In this document: positions 667 through 32,114 of the stretch, in pieces
How positions within the stretch are numbered: position 1 is the first letter of the stretch
Layout: each line of letters opens with the position of its first letter
DNA from: Candidatus Latescibacterota bacterium
GTDB lineage: Bacteria; Latescibacterota; UBA2968; UBA8231
Reading direction: 5' to 3'
Length of the DNA: 64,000 nt
Assembly: GCA_965221775.1 (NCBI GenBank)
Contig: CBDCSU010000006.1
Location: forward strand, 1,696,001 to 1,760,000
Program-made: the position numbers and the translations under genes
Notes under the pieces: generated by a model
Databases searched by the model: none
The model's input: the letters and a program-made list of their open reading frames with translations, nothing else
Told to the model about the DNA's origin: nothing

Positions 667-2019
667 ATGGTCCGAGCGGGCCTGTGCGCGGCCCTCGCGG
701 GGGCCTGCTGGCTGCTGGCCGGGGCCGCCGCCGCGGGTGAGCCGGAGACCGAGGCAAGCCGATTCTGGCCCGCCTGGCGCGGCCCCCTGGGCACCGGCGC
801 CTCTCCCCACGCTGAGCCCCCGCTCCAGTGGAGCCAGACCCGCAACCTGCGCTGGAAGGCGTCCCTGCCCGGCGGCGGCCACTCTACGCCGGTGGTCTGG
901 GGCGACCGGGTCTTCATCACCGCCGCAGTCCCGTACGGCGAGCCCCTGCCGCCGACGTACAGCGGGCTGCCGGGCGGCCACGACGAACGGCCGGTCACCC
1001 ATCGCCACCGGTTCGTCGTCCTTGCCCTGAGCCGCACCACGGGGCGGGTCCTCTGGCAGCGGGTCGTGCGCCACGACCTGCCCCGCGCCGGGGGCCACTA
1101 CACCGCCAGCCTGGCCTCCGCCTCGGCGGTGACCGACGGCGAGCACCTGGTCGCCTCCTTCGGCTCCCACGGGATCTACGGCCTCGACCTCGAGGGGGAG
1201 CTGCTGTGGGAGTTGGACCTCGGCCCCATGGAGCCGCTTCACGGCCACGGCGAAGGCAGCTCGCCGGCGCTCGCCGGCGGGACGCTGATCGTCAACTGGG
1301 ACCACGAGGGCGAGTCCTTCCTCGCCGCCTTCGACAAGAGGACGGGCGGCCTGCGCTGGAAGGCTCCGCGCGAGCCGGCCTCGTCCTGGACCACCCCCAT
1401 CGTGACCGACGCCGGCGGCCGCATCCAGGTCGTGGTCAGCGGCTCCGGGGGAGTGCGCGGCTACGACCTGGCCGACGGCCGCAGGATCTGGGAGTGCCCC
1501 GGCCTCTCGGTGGAGAACGTGGTCTCCACGCCGGTGGCCGGCTTCGGCCTCGTCTTCGCGGGCAGCAGCTACGACCGGCAGGCGGTGCTGGCGATTCCGC
1601 TGCAAGCCGCCGCGGACGAGACCGGCGGGCCCCGCCGGGCCGCCTGGAGCCGCACCCGGGGGGCGCCGTACGTCCCCTCCTTCCTGCTCTACGGGGACGC
1701 CCTCTACTTTGTCCGCCACTTCCAGAACATCCTCACCCGCGTCGACGCCCGAACGGGGCGGGACCGGCCGGGGCCGATGCGCCTGAAGGGCCTCGACCGG
1801 GTCTTCGCCTCTCCCGTCGCCGCTGCCGGCCGCGTGTACGTCACCAGCCGCAACGGCGTCACCGTGGTGGTCAGCCACGCCGATTCGCCCGCCCTCCTGG
1901 CCGTCAACCATCTCGACGACAGCTTCAGCGCCTCGGCGGCACTGGCCGGCGGCGAGCTCTACCTGCGAGGACGACACCACCTCTACTGCATCGCGGAGCA
2001 TCCGCCCCCGGCCCGGTGA
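667..2019 (+). CDS. Secreted PQQ-binding-like (BamB-like) beta-propeller protein
   Basis: Signal peptide, WPAWRGP, STPVVWGDRVF and repeated SSP/STP...W propeller blades. Confidence 0.85.
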   Translation: MVRAGLCAALAGACWLLAGAAAAGEPETEASRFWPAWRGPLGTGASPHAEPPLQWSQTRNLRWKASLPGGGHSTPVVWGDRVFITAAVPYGEPLPPTYSGLPGGHDERPVTHRHRFVVLALSRTTGRVLWQRVVRHDLPRAGGHYTASLASASAVTDGEHLVASFGSHGIYGLDLEGELLWELDLGPMEPLHGHGEGSSPALAGGTLIVNWDHEGESFLAAFDKRTGGLRWKAPREPASSWTTPIVTDAGGRIQVVVSGSGGVRGYDLADGRRIWECPGLSVENVVSTPVAGFGLVFAGSSYDRQAVLAIPLQAAADETGGPRRAAWSRTRGAPYVPSFLLYGDALYFVRHFQNILTRVDARTGRDRPGPMRLKGLDRVFASPVAAAGRVYVTSRNGVTVVVSHADSPALLAVNHLDDSFSASAALAGGELYLRGRHHLYCIAEHPPPAR

Positions 2020-2044
2020 ACCCGGCAGGCGCCGGCGGTGTCAA
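2018..2044 (+). promoter_or_regulatory. Candidate ECF-type promoter upstream of the sigma gene
   Basis: GAACCC-N16-GTCAA, then GGAGG RBS and ATG at 2060. Confidence 0.35.
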
Positions 2045-2059
2045 CCGGGTGGAGGCCGG

Positions 2060-2665
2060 ATGGGGAAGAGCGACGAGGAGCTGGTCCGCGGGGTGATCGA
2101 GGGGCGGCAGGAAGACTTCGCCGAGCTCTTCGAGCGCTACCGCGCCGATGTGCAGCGGCACCTGCGGCGGATCCATCGCCATGACGAGGACGCCGCCGAC
2201 GTCGGGCAGGAGGTGTTCCTGCGCCTGTGGCACCGCGCCGGACAGTGGAAGGGCGACGGCCCCCTGCTCGCCTGGCTGCTGCGCATCGCCACCAACCTCG
2301 CCCTCAACCACATCCGCTCGGTCCGGCGCCGCCGCGAGCAGCCGCTGCAGCCGCCCCCCGCCATGGACGGAGAGGAGGAGGACGACACCCGGGTTCCGGA
2401 GTGGATGATCGACGCCTCCACCCTTCCGCCCGACGAGGTCCTGGCCGTGGCCGAGCGCCGGCGGCTGCTGCGCGGCCTGGTGACGCGTCTGCCCGAGGAC
2501 GGGCGCAGGGTCATCCGGCTGATCTACGACGGCCACCTGAACACGCGCCAGGCCGCTACCGAGCTGGGCATACCCGAGGGCACGGTGAAGTCCCGGATCC
2601 ACCACGCCCGCAAACAGATCGCTCGATCCTGGCGCGACCTGGGGATCGACTGGGAGGAGGACTAG
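2060..2665 (+). CDS. ECF sigma-70 family RNA polymerase sigma factor
   Basis: Region 2 DAADVGQEVFLRLW / AWLLRIATNLALN; region 4 ELGIPEGTVKSRIHHARK. Confidence 0.95.
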   Translation: MGKSDEELVRGVIEGRQEDFAELFERYRADVQRHLRRIHRHDEDAADVGQEVFLRLWHRAGQWKGDGPLLAWLLRIATNLALNHIRSVRRRREQPLQPPPAMDGEEEDDTRVPEWMIDASTLPPDEVLAVAERRRLLRGLVTRLPEDGRRVIRLIYDGHLNTRQAATELGIPEGTVKSRIHHARKQIARSWRDLGIDWEED

Positions 2666-2667
2666 GC

Positions 2668-5600
2668 ATGGCGACCGCACCGTCCAACCCGTGGCACAAG
2701 GCGTCCTTCGACGAATTCCTGCACCGCCGCCTTCCCGAGTTGCTGGCCGCACGGCTGGGGGTGACCACCTGCCGCGCCGCAGGGGCCGGCGGTCACGCCT
2801 GCCGGATCGTCCTCGGCGGGCGTTCCGCCGAGGGGGACTTCGAGGTCGAGTACGACGGGCTGCCCGCACCGGACGAGGAGGGCGTCTTCCGGTTGCCGGG
2901 TTCCCCGGACCCGGACGGCGGGCCCCGCCTGCCGCCCCCGAGGACGTACCACGGGGGGGAGCGCGAGCCCTCGGGCGAAGTCGAGCTGGTCGTGCTGCCC
3001 GTGGCCGACCGGGACGACCTGGCCGAGGCCCGAATCGACTGTCTCGGCGACCGGCTCTCGACCTTCATCGAGTCCCGCCTCGGGGAGGTCCCCGGCCACA
3101 CCCCCCTCGACGGGTCCCTCCTGCGGACCCTGGCGCCTCTGAAGGACTGGTTCCACTCCTTCCTGGCCTCCTGCGGCGAGCGGCTCGACGACACCAACTG
3201 GCTGTCCCGGTCCGCGCACCTGCGCCGGATCCTGGTCCCGGACCGCCAGGAGGTATTCACCCCCGGCCACTTCGGCCGCACCTGCCCCTTCGAGACCCCG
3301 GAGGGACCGAACATCGGCCGCGTCCTGACGATCTCCCGGGGCGCGGAGATCCGCGGCCGCCGGCTGGTGATCGTCGACGCGAAGCCCGCGGAGGGACTGG
3401 GCATGTCCAGCGCATGCATCCCCTTCCTCGAGCACGACGACGGCAACCGCGTGCTCATGGGCGCCAACATGATGCGCCAGTGGCTGGCGCCCGCCGAGAG
3501 AGAGCCGGCCTTCGTGCGGACCGGCCTCGAGCCGCGGGCGCCGGACTTCTGGTGCGGCCGGAACCTGCTCACGGCTCTGCTCTCGTGGGACGGGGACGCC
3601 TTCGAGGACGCCGTGCTGCTCAGCCGGTCCGGCGCCCGCAAGCTCGCCTGCCCGGAGCCCCTCGAGCCCGGCGACAAGCTCAGCAACCGCCACGGGATCA
3701 AGGGCGTCGTGTCCCGGGTGGCGCCCGACGAGGAGATGCCGCGGCTGCCCGACGGCACCCCCGTGGAGCTGGTCTTCAGCTTCTCCGGCATTCCGTCCCG
3801 CTGGGTCATGGGGCTGGTCCGGGAGGCCGCCCTCGGACACGCGGCTCACCTGCGGGGGGAGCCCGCCGTCGTGCCCCCCTTCAAGGCGCCTTCCGACGAG
3901 CAGTTGCGGAACCTGCTTCAGGGCAGCGGCCTGCGCGCCGACGGCATGACCACGCTGACCCTCGACGGCACTCCCCTGCGGCGGCCGGCCACGGCCGGAT
4001 CGGTCTACTGGGGCTGCACCGTGCATCGCGCTCGCCCGAAACTGAGGGCCGCCGTCCACCCCGACGACCGGGGCCAGCGCCTGGGGGAGATGGAGGTGCG
4101 GGCCCTGGCCGAGGCCGGGGCGCCCGCGGTGATCCGGGAGCTGACCAACACCTGCTCCAGCCAACGCGGCGACGCCGGTTCCCTGGCCGAGAGGGCCGCC
4201 GCCGGACCGGTCGAGCCGGCGAGCACCCCCTCTCCCGCCTTCTCGGCCCTGGCGGCGGGTCTGGCGCAGGCCGGAATCCGCGCCGAGGCCGGCCCCCGGG
4301 GGGTCGCCTTCCGGTTGGAACCACCCCGGGGGCCGACGCTGTCCCTGGCCGCCGGCGTGCCCCACCCCTGGTTGCCGGGGAAGACCCTGTCCGAGGTCTG
4401 CGCAGCCGAGGGGGCCGCCGGATATCCCGAGGTCCTCGCCGCCAACGGCAGGCTCGCCCGCCTGCCGAAGGACGGGGCTCCCGAGCCCCTGGCAGCCGCG
4501 GCTCTCGACGATCTGGCCGCCGCTGTCTCGGACCTGTACGACGGACTGGCCGCCGCGCCGCGGCTGGGGCGGGATGGGAATGTCCTCTTCAGCGGCCGTG
4601 CGGTGATCGTCCCCGGGGGCGATCTGCCGGCCGACCGGCTCGGCCTCCCGGCGGAGATGGCCTGGAGCCTCTTCGGGCCGCTGGTGGCCCGCGCGCTGGG
4701 GGATCCCGAAGCGGTGGGGCAGCGCTCCACCGAGGCCGAGGCCGCCCTCGCCGCCGCCATGGAGGCCCACTGGGTCATCCTCGGCCACGCTCCATCGGTC
4801 AGTCCCACGGCGATGCTGGCCTTCCGGCCCCTGCCGATCCCGGGCCACGCCATCCGTCTCTGCCCCCTGGCCTGCGGCCTGTTGGACGCCGATTTCGACG
4901 GCGACCAGGCGGCCGTCTTCCTGCCTCTCACGGAGGCGGCTCAGCGCGAGACCCGCGAGCGGCTGTCCATCGCCGGCCACCTGGCCCGTGACCCCGGCCT
5001 CGTGGAGGACCTCTTCCCGCGCATGGACGCCCTCTTCGGGCTGGCCTGCCTCAGCCGCTCGGCAGCGGGCCGGAAGGCGATTACGCAAGCCGCCGGCCGG
5101 GAGCCGAACCTCGAGGGCGGCCTCCTCACCCGCGAGGCGGCGGCGATGCTGCTGCGGGGTGTCCTGACCGACGAGGGGGAGCAGGCGGCCCTGGGCGTGG
5201 CCGCGGAACTGATGCGGTTGGGGTTCGAGACGGCCCGCGCGGAGGGAGGCTCCGTGGGGCCCTTCATCGGCAGCACCCTCGAACTGCCCGTCCCCCCGGG
5301 GGAGGACGACGCGCCGCAGTGGCAGGCCTGCACGGAGGAAGCCCGGGCGATCGTCGCCGGCTTCCGCGACTACGACGACCACGACCTGGGGGCCGCCGCC
5401 CTGCTGTGCCACAGCGGCGCCCGGGCCACGGTCCATCAGCTCACCACCCTGGTGGGGCCGGGCGGACTCGTTCGCGACGTCGAGGGCCGGGTCCTCGGAG
5501 TCGCCCGCTCCTGGCGGGAGGGACTGACCGCGCGGGAGGTGCTGGCCCGGGTCGTCGGCGCCCGCCGCGGCCTGTTCCGCGTCCTGACGGAGTTCGGATC

Positions 5601-5769
5601 CCTCGGCCGGGAGCGGTCCGGGTCCGGGCCGGAGGGGTTCGGCGTCCTGGCCCGGGCCCGCCGGGTCGAGCGCCCGGGCCTCGTCTTCGCGAGGGCTGCC
5701 CTCAGGGGCGAGGTCGATCCCCTGGAAGACGAGCAATCGCGGCTGCTGGTCGGACTGTCCAGGCCGTGA
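2668..5769 (+). CDS. Miniature single-chain RNA polymerase beta/beta' fusion homologue (1033 aa)
   Basis: Collinear RpoB motifs (GRTCPFETPEGPNIG, IPFLEHDDGNRVLMGANMMRQ, FEDAV, GDKLSNRHGIKG, GQRLGEME) then RpoC motifs (SGRAVI, DADFDGDQ, SGAR, REGL..GARRGL) in one open frame. Confidence 0.93.
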   Translation: MATAPSNPWHKASFDEFLHRRLPELLAARLGVTTCRAAGAGGHACRIVLGGRSAEGDFEVEYDGLPAPDEEGVFRLPGSPDPDGGPRLPPPRTYHGGEREPSGEVELVVLPVADRDDLAEARIDCLGDRLSTFIESRLGEVPGHTPLDGSLLRTLAPLKDWFHSFLASCGERLDDTNWLSRSAHLRRILVPDRQEVFTPGHFGRTCPFETPEGPNIGRVLTISRGAEIRGRRLVIVDAKPAEGLGMSSACIPFLEHDDGNRVLMGANMMRQWLAPAEREPAFVRTGLEPRAPDFWCGRNLLTALLSWDGDAFEDAVLLSRSGARKLACPEPLEPGDKLSNRHGIKGVVSRVAPDEEMPRLPDGTPVELVFSFSGIPSRWVMGLVREAALGHAAHLRGEPAVVPPFKAPSDEQLRNLLQGSGLRADGMTTLTLDGTPLRRPATAGSVYWGCTVHRARPKLRAAVHPDDRGQRLGEMEVRALAEAGAPAVIRELTNTCSSQRGDAGSLAERAAAGPVEPASTPSPAFSALAAGLAQAGIRAEAGPRGVAFRLEPPRGPTLSLAAGVPHPWLPGKTLSEVCAAEGAAGYPEVLAANGRLARLPKDGAPEPLAAAALDDLAAAVSDLYDGLAAAPRLGRDGNVLFSGRAVIVPGGDLPADRLGLPAEMAWSLFGPLVARALGDPEAVGQRSTEAEAALAAAMEAHWVILGHAPSVSPTAMLAFRPLPIPGHAIRLCPLACGLLDADFDGDQAAVFLPLTEAAQRETRERLSIAGHLARDPGLVEDLFPRMDALFGLACLSRSAAGRKAITQAAGREPNLEGGLLTREAAAMLLRGVLTDEGEQAALGVAAELMRLGFETARAEGGSVGPFIGSTLELPVPPGEDDAPQWQACTEEARAIVAGFRDYDDHDLGAAALLCHSGARATVHQLTTLVGPGGLVRDVEGRVLGVARSWREGLTAREVLARVVGARRGLFRVLTEFGSLGRERSGSGPEGFGVLARARRVERPGLVFARAALRGEVDPLEDEQSRLLVGLSRP

Positions 5770-5854
5770 CGGCCAGGCCGTGCGGCCTCACCCGCCGACC
5801 GCCTGGGCGTGCCCGCGGGAGTGGTGTCGAGTGTCGGCCCGGCGGCCGGCAGCG

Positions 5855-6784
5855 CTAGCCGTCCGGCCCGCGCAACTCGATGGCGTCCAGCAGTTGCTGA
5901 GGGTTGGCCAGGTCCACGGGCAGGAGCACGTCCGTCTTGCCGTCGGCCAGACCGCGCAACGTCTTGAGATAGCGCTCCGCCAGCTGCAGGTGCACCGACT
6001 GGGCGCCGCCGGCGACGCTGATCGAGGCGGCGATCTTCTCGATCGACTCGGCCGTCGCATGGGCGATGGCCCGGACCTCCTCGGCCTGACCCTGGGCCTC
6101 GTTGATGGTGCGCTGCATCTCGCCCTCCGAGCGGTTGATCAGCTCCAGGCGCCGGCCCTCCGAGGTGTTGATGCGGCTCTGCTTGTCGCCCTCGGACTGG
6201 GCCACGACGGCGCGGCGGTCGCGCTCGGCGGTGACCTGCTTCTCCATGGCGTCCTTCACCGTCGGCGGCGGCGACAGGTTCTTGATCTCGTAGCGGTGGA
6301 CGCGGATCCCCCAGGTCTCCCCCGACCTCTCCAGCACCTCCACCACTTTGGCCGAGATCAGGTCGCGCTCCTCGAAGGTCCGGTCGAGCTCGAGGGTGCC
6401 GATGACCGAACGGGTCGTGGTCTGCGCCAGTTGCATGGCGGCGAAGGAGTAGTTGGTCACCCCGTAACTGGCCTTCACCGGATCGGTGACCGAGATGTAG
6501 AGGACGCCGTCCACCTCGACCTGGACCTCGTCCCGGGTGAAGCACTCCTGGGGCGGCACGTCGACGGTCTCCTCCTTGAGATCGCGGATGAAGGCCACCT
6601 TCTCGATGAAGGGCACGAGGGCGTGGAAACCGGGGTTCAGAGTTCTGGAGTACTTGCCGAGCCGCTCGACGACGTACGCCGACTGGGTCGGCACCAGCCG
6701 GATCGAGCGCAGGAACTTGACGATCAGGACCAGGAACAGGACGGCCCAGACGATGAGGTTGAAGATCTCGAAGACGGTCGACAT
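5855..6784 (-). CDS. SPFH/band 7 (QmcA/paraslipin-like) protein
   Basis: N-terminal TM, VVERLGKY, LAQTTTRSVIG, MEKQVTAER. Confidence 0.92.
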   Translation of the reverse strand: MSTVFEIFNLIVWAVLFLVLIVKFLRSIRLVPTQSAYVVERLGKYSRTLNPGFHALVPFIEKVAFIRDLKEETVDVPPQECFTRDEVQVEVDGVLYISVTDPVKASYGVTNYSFAAMQLAQTTTRSVIGTLELDRTFEERDLISAKVVEVLERSGETWGIRVHRYEIKNLSPPPTVKDAMEKQVTAERDRRAVVAQSEGDKQSRINTSEGRRLELINRSEGEMQRTINEAQGQAEEVRAIAHATAESIEKIAASISVAGGAQSVHLQLAERYLKTLRGLADGKTDVLLPVDLANPQQLLDAIELRGPDG

Positions 6785-26231: not shown

Positions 26232-31946
<5,715 letters not shown>

Positions 31947-32114
31947 GGACCTCCGGGTGGGGCTGCAAGGGAGGAAGAAGGCAAACGTGACAATTTACGG
32001 GAGGCGGACGAACCCGCAACCGTCCGGCCCATTCCTTCCCGGGGAGGTGGCCGGTCCCGGGTGAAGACCTTACCGTAGCAGCCGCCACCCGCCACCTGCA
32101 ACGAACCGGGACCG

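What the first reader, a model, noticed from the sequence alone, without database searches (positions are those of the whole stretch)
2060..5769. ECF sigma and mini-RNAP form a tightly coupled two-gene module
Seen: sigma stop TAG (2665) lies 2 nt before the mini-RNAP ATG (2668), with GGAGG inside the sigma 3' end; no anti-sigma gene follows, and the next gene is convergent. Known: the gene directly after an ECF sigma is typically its anti-sigma. Inference: either a dedicated two-component transcription machine (private sigma plus private core) or an RNAP-mimic that sequesters the sigma as a new kind of anti-sigma.
Basis: partly seen in the sequence, partly recalled or inferred. Interest (0 to 1): 0.92.

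Follow-up and report, generated by a model that had tools for sequence, protein, structure and literature searches.

The report
Private sigma plus single-chain mini RNA polymerase
A bacterium from sponges carries, beside its normal RNA polymerase, a conserved two-gene unit encoding a small sigma factor and a one-piece, half-size RNA polymerase with an intact active site, which may be the smallest promoter-directed transcription machine of the cellular type.

Summary
An ECF-type sigma gene (2060-2665) ends 2 nt before a 1033-aa gene (2668-5769). That gene is a fusion of cut-down RNA polymerase beta and beta' subunits.

- **Active site:** it is intact and conserved across the family.
- **Retained and lost parts:** the beta' clamp helices, the main sigma dock, are kept. 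The beta flap, lobe, trigger loop and jaw are gone.
- **Host enzyme:** the genome also has normal rpoB and rpoC.
- **Linkage:** in 77 of 78 assessable related loci from several phyla, an orthologous sigma lies just upstream on the same strand. In 38 of those 77 the genes overlap or lie within 5 nt.
- **Co-occurrence:** the two genes co-occur almost perfectly in 151 genomes and diverge in step (r 0.91).
- **Promoter:** a conserved ECF-type promoter (TGAAC-N16-GTGTC) precedes the operon in 73 of 76 cases. It is essentially unique in each genome searched.
- **Other partners:** no anti-sigma or third conserved gene was found.
- **Mobility and annotation:** it is not on phages or plasmids. Every source that names a family member calls it hypothetical, and I found no paper on it.

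Best reading (about 0.55): a self-activating, two-protein, sigma-dependent mini RNA polymerase. Binding is only weakly supported by prediction, and the targets are unknown. A pure anti-sigma decoy is unlikely.

The parts
2017..2022 (+). -35-like promoter element TGAACC. Its TGA is also the stop codon of the upstream PQQ/BamB-like gene.
   Evidence: Sequence. GAAC-N16-GTGTC is present upstream of sigma in 73 of 76 regions examined, 71 of them with a spacing of 16. Across 80 loci there are 84 hits against 1 for the reversed control.
2037..2042 (+). -10-like promoter element GGTGTC.
   Evidence: The strict motif TGAACY-N14-GGTGTC occurs only twice in the 5.36-Mb genome, and one of the two is here.
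2051..2055 (+). Shine-Dalgarno GGAGG for the sigma gene.
   Evidence: Sequence. It lies 4 nt before ATG 2060.
2060..2665 (+). ECF-type sigma factor, 201 aa (P0001). It has regions 2 and 4 joined by an acidic linker with the conserved motif VP.WMID.
   Evidence: Pfam and NCBIfam. Alignment of 25 orthologues has 61% mean column identity.
2652..2660 (+). Shine-Dalgarno GGGAGGAGG for the polymerase gene, inside the sigma coding sequence.
   Evidence: Sequence. The stop-start gap is 5 nt or less, or an overlap, in 38 of 77 linked loci.
2668..5769 (+). Single-chain mini RNA polymerase, 1033 aa (P0002). A reduced beta (about aa 1-520) is fused to a reduced beta' (about aa 530-1033).
   Evidence: AlphaFold2 model has pLDDT 90.4 and pTM 0.88. 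Foldseek top hits are bacterial beta and beta'.
3670..3705 (+). Beta double-psi barrel motif GDKLSNRHGIKG. K337 and K345 correspond to E. coli beta K1065 and K1073.
   Evidence: Residue map. K337 is kept in 72 of 73 loci and K345 in 70 of 73.
4417..4551 (+). Clamp helices (coiled coil), aa 584-628, matching E. coli beta' 267-311. This is the canonical sigma region 2 docking site.
   Evidence: Model helices at 586-597 and 606-627. The positions equal to beta' R275 and E295 are Ala here and small residues across the family. The host's own beta' keeps R and E.
4891..4905 (+). Catalytic DFDGD, aa 742-746. D742, D744 and D746 correspond to beta' D460, D462 and D464.
   Evidence: D744 and D746 are kept in 73 of 73 loci, D742 in 69 of 73 (N in the other 4).
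5530..5619 (+). Long helix, aa 955-984, whose start aligns with the beta' bridge helix. The protein ends 49 residues later, so there is no trigger loop.
   Evidence: Model secondary structure. Alignment to beta' 736-795.

Best explanation
**What it is.** The two genes encode a self-contained, two-polypeptide transcription machine.
- The 1033-aa protein is an active, single-chain, cut-down RNA polymerase of the bacterial multisubunit type: beta fused to beta'.
- The 201-aa ECF sigma is its dedicated initiation factor.

**How it would work.** Sigma region 2 docks on the retained clamp helices. The holoenzyme then recognises a TGAAC-N16-GTGTC promoter. The one clear copy of that promoter drives the operon itself, so the module activates itself.

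**Shown here.**
- The fused architecture, with conserved catalytic residues.
- Retention of the clamp helices, with family-specific changes.
- Operon linkage, co-occurrence and correlated divergence of the two genes.
- The conserved promoter.

**Inferred.**
- That sigma binds the mini polymerase rather than only the host core.
- That the pair initiates at the promoter.

The output, meaning the targets beyond its own operon, is unknown.
For: **1. Architecture.** Profile alignment to E. coli subunits covers:
- beta 448-582, 653-707, 790-821, 1054-1147 and 1178-1342 (its C-terminus);
- then beta' 267-516, 590-640 and 697-794.

The AlphaFold2 model is confident (pLDDT 90.4).

**2. Active site.**
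- D744 and D746 are kept in 73 of 73 loci, D742 in 69 of 73.
- K337 is kept in 72 of 73 and K345 in 70 of 73.
- R341 is kept in 73 of 73.
- The 179 database proteins of 950-1150 aa show similar counts.

**3. Clamp helices.** They are retained although most of the clamp is deleted. The positions equal to beta' R275 and E295 are Ala, Val or Thr across the family. The host's own beta' keeps R and E. This fits a private interface.

**4. Linkage.**
- An orthologous sigma (41-93% identity) lies upstream in 77 of 80 loci. Two of the other three have no upstream DNA.
- The start overlaps the stop as ATGA in 17 loci, and the gap is 5 nt or less in 38 of 77.
- Only these two genes are shared by the loci.

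**5. Co-occurrence in 151 genomes of the phylum.**
- The polymerase is in 53 and the sigma orthologue (200 bits or more) in 51. Both are in 50.
- Other ECF sigmas score 141 bits or less.

**6. Joint divergence.** Pairwise distances of the two proteins correlate (r 0.91), and 0 of 999 permutations reach that value.

**7. Promoter.**
- It is present in 73 of 76 sigma-upstream regions.
- Where the polymerase gene is separated from sigma (L041) or has no sigma beside it (L029), it carries its own copy just upstream.

**8. Predicted complex.** Sigma was folded with polymerase residues 1-798.
- Verdict: weak support. Score 0.49, best of 3 controls 0.00.
- The runs agree in at least 44% of contacts, and the partner pLDDT is at least 63.
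- The mark was reached by 58 of 80 solved complexes and 2 of 110 mismatched pairs.
- At 0.60 or under it was reached by only 7 of those 80 solved complexes, and by both mismatches that passed.
- Sigma-polymerase complexes are solved, so the pass may reflect likeness only.
Against: - The beta flap (beta 822-1053), which holds sigma region 4 in all known holoenzymes, is absent. So are the beta' zinc finger and lid region.
- The promoter has the ordinary ECF geometry with a 16-nt spacer. That suits the host core enzyme just as well.
- Sigma region 2.2 looks canonical (DVGQEVFLRLW). It could therefore bind the host beta'.
- Two complete genomes (G147, G153) keep the polymerase gene with no sigma orthologue and no promoter motif nearby. 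Sigma may therefore not be obligatory.
- No regulon was found. In each of six genomes searched, matches to the motif beyond the module's own promoter are about as frequent as the control.
- The complex prediction is weak and gave no interface.
- Linkage and co-occurrence show co-inheritance, not binding.
Confidence: 0.55

Rival explanations
1. Regulator plus effector. The sigma is an ordinary ECF factor that works only with the host core polymerase. It switches on its own operon. The mini polymerase is the regulated product and acts without sigma, as YonO may, on some special template. Examples would be single-stranded or nicked DNA, RNA, or primer synthesis.
For: - The promoter geometry is canonical ECF.
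- Sigma region 2.2 is canonical.
- The flap that anchors region 4 is missing from the mini polymerase.
- G147 and G153 keep the polymerase without sigma.
- YonO, a single-chain relative, transcribes in vitro, and no sigma requirement has been established for it (PMC5467207, passages read).
Against: - The clamp helices are selectively kept and carry family-specific changes at sigma-contact positions.
- Start-stop overlaps point to stoichiometric co-production.
- The sigma orthogroup is found essentially only together with the polymerase: 50 of 51 genomes.
- The predicted complex gave a weak pass (score 0.49, best control 0.00).
Confidence: 0.27
2. Polymerase-shaped anti-sigma. The mini polymerase binds the sigma through its clamp helices and withholds it from the host core. 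That would give negative feedback on a sigma that has no classical anti-sigma.
For: - No anti-sigma gene or domain is present in the module.
- The clamp helices are retained.
- The two genes are translationally coupled.
- Positive autoregulation with no brake would otherwise run away (inference).
Against: - The whole active site is conserved family-wide: the Asp triad, both beta lysines, ETPEG and GANM.RQ.
- The bridge helix and fork region are also kept.
- A decoy has no need for any of these. A side role as a buffer is not excluded.
Confidence: 0.06
3. Accessory conflict or stress module. The pair is a switchable back-up or orthogonal polymerase. It would be used when the host enzyme is blocked by phage or antibiotic inhibitors, or it would act as a defence trigger.
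For: - Distribution is patchy even within the genus: 3 of 8 other genomes of the genus, and 53 of 151 in the phylum.
- Chromosomal contexts vary.
- In this protein the rifampicin-pocket position equal to beta S531 is Leu. The link to resistance is recalled, not tested.
Against: - There is no match to 5027 defence models.
- No conserved effector neighbour was found.
- It is not on phages or plasmids.
- The S531-equivalent position is variable in the family.
- No second promoter target was found.
- This reading is about the role of the module. It is compatible with the best explanation or with the first rival.
Confidence: 0.1

Closest known systems
YonO of Bacillus subtilis prophage SPbeta (single-peptide RNA polymerase; PMC5467207, abstract and passages read)
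   Same: - About 100 kDa.
- One chain carries both catalytic barrels.
- No trigger loop.
- No alpha or omega subunit requirement is implied.
   Different: - The paper states that YonO shares only a few active-site residues with multisubunit enzymes. This protein matches bacterial beta at E 3.7e-41 and beta' at 3.3e-26.
- YonO is prophage-borne. This family has no full-length member in 50,697 phage records.
- No dedicated sigma is known for YonO.
Killer-plasmid polymerase Orf6 (K2ORF6p) of yeast linear plasmids, an Rpb2::Rpb1-like fusion of 982 aa (PMC2919709 and PMC6211774, passages read)
   Same: - Same design: beta-like half fused to beta'-like half.
- About half of each subunit is deleted.
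- About 1000 aa.
   Different: - It is eukaryotic and plasmid-borne.
- Its clamp coiled coil is reported missing (PMC6211774), whereas it is kept here.
- It uses a separate small subunit for the beta' C-terminal regions. No such partner is conserved here.
- It has no sigma.
- Direct sequence comparison was not done.
Canonical bacterial RNA polymerase with an ECF sigma (for example the M. tuberculosis sigma H holoenzyme, PDB 5zx3/6jcx, among the fold hits)
   Same: - Same catalytic motifs, clamp helices, fork/rifampicin region and bridge helix.
- ECF sigma with regions 2 and 4.
- Promoter with an AAC-type -35 element and a GTC-type -10 element.
   Different: - One chain instead of five subunits.
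- No flap, lobe, trigger loop, jaw, zinc finger or omega site.
- The genome has a normal rpoB and rpoC as well.
Full-length rpoB-rpoC fusions (NCBIfam NF011417 and NF007172, models of 2839-2890 positions)
   Same: The beta C-terminus runs on into beta' in one reading frame.
   Different: Those are complete subunits. Scores here are 154.8 and 145.2 bits against cut-offs of 4632 and 5372.
Non-canonical multisubunit polymerases of jumbo phages (phiKZ type; PMC7824862 passages, PMC4666361 listing only)
   Same: They are reduced relatives of beta and beta' that work apart from the host enzyme.
   Different: - They are split into several polypeptides rather than fused.
- They are phage-encoded.
- The best viral contig matches to this family reach only 22-41% identity over part of the length.

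Membership tests
ECF (group 4) sigma-70 family | Only regions 2 and 4 are present, and the protein is about 200 aa. | tested here: met
   Pfam Sigma70_r2 (residues 23-90) and Sigma70_r4_2 (135-187) in a 201-aa protein. TIGR02937 sigma70-ECF scores 89.9 bits against a cut-off of 42.9.
ECF (group 4) sigma-70 family | Autoregulatory promoter with an AAC-type -35 element and a GTC-type -10 element. | tested here: met
   TGAAC-N16-GTGTC lies upstream of sigma in 73 of 76 regions. That this motif class is typical of ECF promoters is recalled knowledge.
ECF (group 4) sigma-70 family | A cognate anti-sigma gene next to it. This is usual, not obligatory. | tested here: not met
   No anti-sigma domain was found. 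No third gene is conserved across the 81 sources. ORFs under 80 aa were not clustered.
ECF (group 4) sigma-70 family | Assignment to a described ECF group. | not testable with these tools
   All NCBIfam equivalog and subfamily hits are below their cut-offs. The group tables of PMC7826278 are in supplements that are closed. Its main text has no mention of rpoB, rpoC or Rpb.
Multisubunit-type (two-barrel) RNA polymerase catalytic core | Beta' barrel with the metal-binding NADFDGD aspartates. | tested here: met
   DADFDGD lies at 740-746, mapping to beta' D460, D462 and D464. The aspartates are conserved.
Multisubunit-type (two-barrel) RNA polymerase catalytic core | Beta barrel with the two invariant lysines. 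| tested here: met
   K337 and K345 map to beta K1065 and K1073. They are kept in 72 and 70 of 73 loci.
Multisubunit-type (two-barrel) RNA polymerase catalytic core | Bridge helix. | tested here: inconclusive
   Sequence aligns to beta' up to residue 795, and the model has a 30-residue helix at 955-984. The C-terminal half of the helix is not aligned.
Multisubunit-type (two-barrel) RNA polymerase catalytic core | Trigger loop. | tested here: not met
   The protein ends 49 residues after the helix. Nothing aligns beyond beta' 795.
Multisubunit-type (two-barrel) RNA polymerase catalytic core | Separate beta and beta' subunits assembled on an alpha dimer, with omega. | tested here: not met
   The protein is a single ORF. 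No alpha-like or omega-like gene is conserved nearby. Whether host alpha binds was not tested.
YonO-type single-chain polymerases | One polypeptide with both barrels, and no trigger loop. | tested here: met
YonO-type single-chain polymerases | Sequence membership: close to the RdRP-like branch, with only residue-level likeness to beta and beta'. | tested here: not met
   Likeness to bacterial beta and beta' is strong. The PHROG hits are full-size families of 1191 and 1216 positions. YonO itself was not aligned.
YonO-type single-chain polymerases | Phage or prophage location. | tested here: not met
   0 of 50,697 phage records and 0 of 72,556 plasmid records hold 80% or more of the protein. The flanks are ordinary chromosomal genes.
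Anti-sigma factors | An anti-sigma domain, or any described anti-sigma fold. | tested here: not met
   The only Pfam hits are polymerase domains.
Known anti-phage defence systems | A match to a defence-system protein model. | tested here: not met
   No PADLOC hit for either protein.

The most novel reading that the evidence does not exclude
This is the first sigma-dependent single-chain RNA polymerase. It would be a two-polypeptide holoenzyme of about 135 kDa, derived from the bacterial enzyme.
- It would recognise its own promoter without flap, trigger loop, alpha or omega.
- It would run as a circuit separate from the host polymerase.
- It would define the minimal sigma-core interface.
- It would mean that some bacteria run two cellular-type polymerases side by side.
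Probability: 0.5. Interest if true: 0.9.

Novelty: new variant of a known kind. Interest (0 to 1): 0.82.

Why it matters
- **Textbook view.** Bacteria are held to have one RNA polymerase core, and all sigma factors compete for it. A second, miniature core with its own sigma would break that rule. The module is present in at least 489 species-level genomes of several phyla.
- **Mechanism.** It would show which parts of the 400-kDa enzyme are really needed for promoter-directed initiation. That includes how region 4 of sigma is held without the flap.
- **Tool.** It could serve as a compact, possibly orthogonal transcription tool.
- **Testability.** Two genes and a 26-nt promoter suffice for an in vitro test.
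- **If the rival reading holds.** A sigma-controlled, catalytically intact mini polymerase of unknown template would still be a new enzyme family to characterise.

Tried and rejected
- **Regulon search.**
  - The strict motif occurs twice in the own genome, and a matrix scan gave nothing convincing.
  - Five other genomes gave 2-4 strict hits each, against 0-6 for the control. The extra hits lie mostly inside genes.
  - With up to 2 mismatches the counts are near control. The excess in one genome includes a repeat family.
- **Wrong spacer.** One search used a spacer one base too long by my error. It found only control-level matches, none of them an operon promoter.
- **Wrong regex.** One search had a wrong spacer in my regex and is void. 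One search replaces it.
- **Over-strict motifs.** My first motif regexes for catalytic residues were too strict, because DYDGD and DHDGD variants exist. Column counts replaced them.
- **Other promoters and terminators.** None were found at 1900-6000.
- **Expression.**
  - One metatranscriptome library holds contigs of a relative about 92% identical. One of them spans 1912-2987, across the sigma-polymerase junction.
  - The flanks are covered too, contigs cannot show starts, and DNA carry-over is possible. I do not count it as evidence of transcription.
  - Parts of the gene without cover in that run mean nothing.
- **Mobile elements and defence.** These were rejected.
- **Downstream conserved stretch.** The stretch after the -10 element (AGT.GA.G) seems to be the leader and ribosome site, not a separate element.
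- **Closed or missing sources.**
  - Iyer and Aravind 2012 is not held.
  - Supplements were not opened.


Full report
**Observation**

The window has about 72% G+C.
- An ORF of 201 codons runs from ATG 2060 to TAG 2663-2665.
- Two bases later, ATG 2668 opens an ORF of 1033 codons that ends at 5767-5769.
- GGGAGGAGG at 2652-2660 lies inside the end of the first ORF.
- The first protein (P0001) has sigma-70 regions 2 and 4 only, and passes the NCBIfam ECF superfamily model.
- The second protein (P0002) carries Pfam Rpb2_3, Rpb2_6 and Rpb2_7, followed by Rpb1_2. It matches bacterial rpoB and rpoC models far below their full-length cut-offs.
- Upstream lies a PQQ/BamB-like propeller gene that ends at 2019.
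- Downstream lie convergent SPFH, SPFH and NfeD genes.

**What the large protein is**

A profile of 30 family members was aligned to E. coli beta and beta'. It covers:
- beta 448-582, 653-707, 790-821, 1054-1147 and 1178-1342, the last being the very C-terminus of beta;
- then beta' 267-516, 590-640 and 697-794;
- with weak matches to beta 119-148 and beta' 76-121.

It is therefore a head-to-tail fusion of beta and beta' with large deletions.

Retained:
- the beta1/fork/rifampicin-pocket region;
- both catalytic barrels;
- the beta C-terminal clamp part;
- the beta' clamp helices and switch 2;
- the F loop and the start of the bridge helix.

Missing:
- the beta lobe;
- the whole flap (beta 822-1053);
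- beta' 122-266, with the lid;
- the zinc-finger cysteines;
- everything after about beta' 800, meaning the trigger loop, the jaw and the omega site.

Residue mapping:

| P0002 residue | E. coli equivalent |
|---|---|
| K337, K345 | beta K1065, K1073 |
| E313, D314 | beta E813, D814 |
| D742, D744, D746 | beta' D460, D462, D464 |

The AlphaFold2 model is confident (mean pLDDT 90.4, pTM 0.88). Its best PDB fold matches are bacterial beta and beta' chains, each covering only part of the query (TM-score on the query at most 0.40). No viral predicted structure covers it fully either. The genome also has a normal rpoB (open frame of 1312 codons) and rpoC (1389 codons) on another contig. This protein is an extra polymerase, not the cell's only one.

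**Is it active?**

Across 73 related loci:
- D744 and D746 are invariant (73 of 73);
- D742 is D in 69 and N in 4;
- K337 is kept in 72 and K345 in 70;
- R341 is kept in 73 and E212 in 73.

The 179 database proteins of 950-1150 aa give similar proportions. This is the pattern of an enzyme under selection for catalysis, and it argues against a pure decoy.

**The family and its linkage to sigma**

- About 100 full-length clusters at 50% identity exist.
- Every source that names a family member calls it hypothetical.
- One genome per species of GTDB gave 489 loci, of which the best 80 were kept. Their records are labelled Gemmatimonadota, Latescibacterota, Poribacteria, Chloroflexota, Armatimonadota, Planctomycetota and Hydrogenedentota. 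All 80 are metagenome-assembled.

Linkage in those 80 loci:
- 77 have an orthologue of P0001 (41-93% identity, E at most 1e-20) upstream on the same strand.
- Of the other three, L044 and L059 have no upstream DNA on their contig. L029 has 5.2 kb upstream and no sigma.

Distance from the sigma stop to the predicted polymerase start. The start codons were chosen by a simple rule.

| Distance | Loci (of 77) |
|---|---|
| -4 (ATGA overlap) | 17 |
| -1 | 6 |
| 0 to 5 nt | 15 |
| 11 to 324 nt | 31 |
| 789 nt or more | 8 |

Seven loci labelled Latescibacterota have a gene inserted between the two. It is an ABC exporter of about 597 aa or a protein of about 381 aa.

All ORFs of 80 aa or more in the 80 loci and the window were clustered.
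- Only the polymerase (81 of 81 sources) and the sigma (79 of 81) are shared.
- Other real clusters reach at most 18 loci.
- Two clusters found in all 81 sources are antisense shadows of the polymerase gene.

**Co-occurrence**

In 151 genomes sampled from the window's phylum:
- The polymerase is present in 53 (E at most 1e-100).
- A sigma scoring 200 bits or more is present in 51. The next best ECF matches score 141 bits or less, so the orthogroup is distinct.
- Fifty genomes have both.

Exceptions:
- G133: the polymerase is cut by a contig end.
- G048: the sigma sits at a contig end.
- G147 and G153: these are single-contig genomes with a polymerase gene but no sigma orthologue and no promoter motif in the 7-kb regions fetched. 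The genome search scored only 21 of their candidates, so a distant copy could have been missed.

Distribution is patchy: 3 of 8 other genomes of the same genus, and 20 of 20 in another genus. Pairwise distances of sigma and polymerase across 73 loci correlate (Pearson 0.91, and 0 of 999 permutations reach it). Their mean divergence is equal (0.49 for both). This shows inheritance as a unit. It does not by itself show binding.

**The promoter**

- Upstream of sigma, 73 of 76 regions carry GAAC-N-GTGTC. The spacer is 16 nt in 71 of them. In most regions the motif begins 42-62 nt before the start codon.
- The consensus is TGAACtTTt...GCGGTGTC.
- In the window it reads TGAACC at 2017-2022 and GGTGTC at 2037-2042. 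GGAGG at 2051-2055 and ATG at 2060 follow.
- In the 80 loci (1.05 Mb, both strands) the motif occurs 84 times, against once for its reversed control. Seventy-one of the hits lie before sigma.
- Where the polymerase gene stands apart from sigma (L041, 789-nt gap) or has no sigma beside it (L029), a further copy sits 187 and 71 nt before the polymerase start.

The polymerase gene is therefore kept under this sigma's promoter type. That such AAC/GTC motifs are typical ECF autoregulatory promoters is recalled knowledge.

**Targets**

- The strict motif occurs twice in the 5.36-Mb genome. One copy is at the operon. The other has no ORF behind it.
- A matrix scan gave no convincing further site.
- In five other genomes the module's own promoters are the only convincing sites. 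Four of them match the strict pattern, one before a second module copy, and one genome's promoter has a variant -10 element that the pattern misses. The other hits are near control level and mostly inside genes.

The only evident target is the module itself, and the output remains unknown.

**Does sigma bind the mini polymerase?**

For:
- The clamp helices, known as the main dock of sigma region 2, survive at residues 584-628, although most of the clamp is deleted.
- The positions equal to beta' R275 and E295 are Ala here. Across the family they are Ala, Val or Thr. I recall both residues as needed for sigma-70 binding.
- The host's own beta' keeps R and E at those positions. This fits a private interface.
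- A complex prediction of sigma with polymerase residues 1-798 gave 'weak support':
  - score 0.49, best of 3 controls 0.00;
  - the runs agree in at least 44% of contacts, and the partner pLDDT is at least 63;
  - the mark was reached by 58 of 80 solved complexes and 2 of 110 mismatched pairs;
  - at 0.60 or under it was reached by only 7 of those 80 solved complexes, and by both mismatches that passed;
  - no interface was given;
  - sigma-core complexes are solved, so the pass may only reflect likeness.

Against:
- The flap that holds region 4 is absent.
- The promoter geometry is the ordinary one.
- Sigma region 2.2 is canonical.
- Two genomes keep the polymerase alone.

**Not mobile, not a known defence**

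- No phage record (0 of 50,697) and no plasmid record (0 of 72,556) holds 80% or more of the protein. The hits there are ordinary rpoB and rpoC.
- Viral contigs give only 22-41% identity over parts of the protein.
- There are no PADLOC hits.
- The PHROG hits are full-size beta-like and beta'-like families.

**Habitat and expression**

- Nineteen runs from 7 studies hold half or more of the sampled words of 1900-5900. Most are labelled sponge metagenome. The best holders may be the source sample.
- One metatranscriptomic library has contigs of a relative about 92% identical. One contig spans 1912-2987, across the gene junction.
- The flanks are covered too, and DNA carry-over cannot be excluded. 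I do not count this as proof of transcription.

**Comparison with what is known**

- **YonO** (PMC5467207; abstract and passages read). It is a single-chain polymerase without a trigger loop. The paper says it shares only a few active-site residues with multisubunit enzymes, and it is prophage-borne.
- **Yeast killer-plasmid Orf6.** It is an Rpb2::Rpb1-like fusion of 982 aa with about half of each subunit deleted (PMC2919709, passages). Its clamp coiled coil is reported missing (PMC6211774, passages).
- **This family.** It is bacterial and chromosomal. It is far closer in sequence to beta and beta' (E 3.7e-41 and 3.3e-26 against PDB chains). It keeps the coiled coil and comes with its own sigma.

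Eight literature searches were run. I also looked into two ECF surveys with no mention of rpoB, rpoC or Rpb in their main text (PMC7826278, PMC8999054). A third ECF paper (PMC7671368) was checked. None described this family.

Not seen:
- Iyer and Aravind 2012, which is not held;
- all supplements, including the ECF group tables, which may list this gene context;

**Verdict**

- It is a widespread, conserved, self-promoted two-gene module: an ECF sigma plus a catalytically intact single-chain beta-beta' mini polymerase.
- I put about 0.55 on a true sigma-dependent mini holoenzyme.
- I put about 0.27 on a sigma that only switches on a sigma-independent mini polymerase.
- A pure anti-sigma decoy gets little.
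- It is a new variant of a known kind (reduced two-barrel polymerases), of high interest, and directly testable.

Noticed in passing
L051, L058, L065, L068, L077 (gap of about 1.9 kb); L072, L078 (gap of about 1.25 kb): In seven loci labelled Latescibacterota, a gene sits between sigma and the polymerase. It is an ABC exporter of about 597 aa or a protein of about 381-396 aa. No second promoter motif was found in the gap, so these look like three-gene operons.
   Followed up: partly
L025 and L098 (one genome, G004 = G068): One 8.4-Mb genome has two copies of the whole module. Each copy has its own sigma and promoter motif.
   Followed up: partly
L182 (G147) and L183 (G153): Two single-contig genomes of one genus keep an open polymerase gene with no sigma orthologue and no promoter motif nearby. 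In G147 the gene lacks about the first 95-120 residues.
   Followed up: partly
L063:1481: The promoter motif typical of this clade lies 4.5 kb before the polymerase start instead of directly before sigma. Something may have been inserted between the promoter and the operon.
   Followed up: no
window 3232-3234 (residue L189 of P0002): The rifampicin-pocket position equal to E. coli beta S531 is Leu in this protein, while D516, H526 and R529 equivalents are kept. I recall S531L as a classic resistance change. The position is variable in the family.
   Followed up: partly
own genome outside the window: C6:153452, C6:1939236, C5:1314361, C5:1481078: A stretch of at least 54 nt beginning TTGTACTTTTCCGTAAGTCG recurs four times, three copies identical and one differing at a single base. 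It may be a repeat or a shared promoter.
   Followed up: no
G001 (genome of L013), about 14 places: A repeat family carries TAAACTTTCGATTCTCAGTAGGTGTC. It inflates near-matches to the promoter pattern in that genome.
   Followed up: no
L102, L104, L163 and other IMG/VR loci: Viral contigs hold contiguous stretches matching residues from about 300 to 970 of the protein at 22-25% identity. They may be phage polymerases with adjacent or fused beta-like and beta'-like parts.
   Followed up: no
window 26232-31994 (minus strand): A very long open frame of about 1920 codons with coding-like base composition. It was not examined.
   Followed up: no
window 5772 onward (29 nt): Contigs of two sponge metagenome runs lack 29 nt just after the polymerase stop codon. 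The intergenic spacer to the convergent SPFH gene varies between strains.
   Followed up: no
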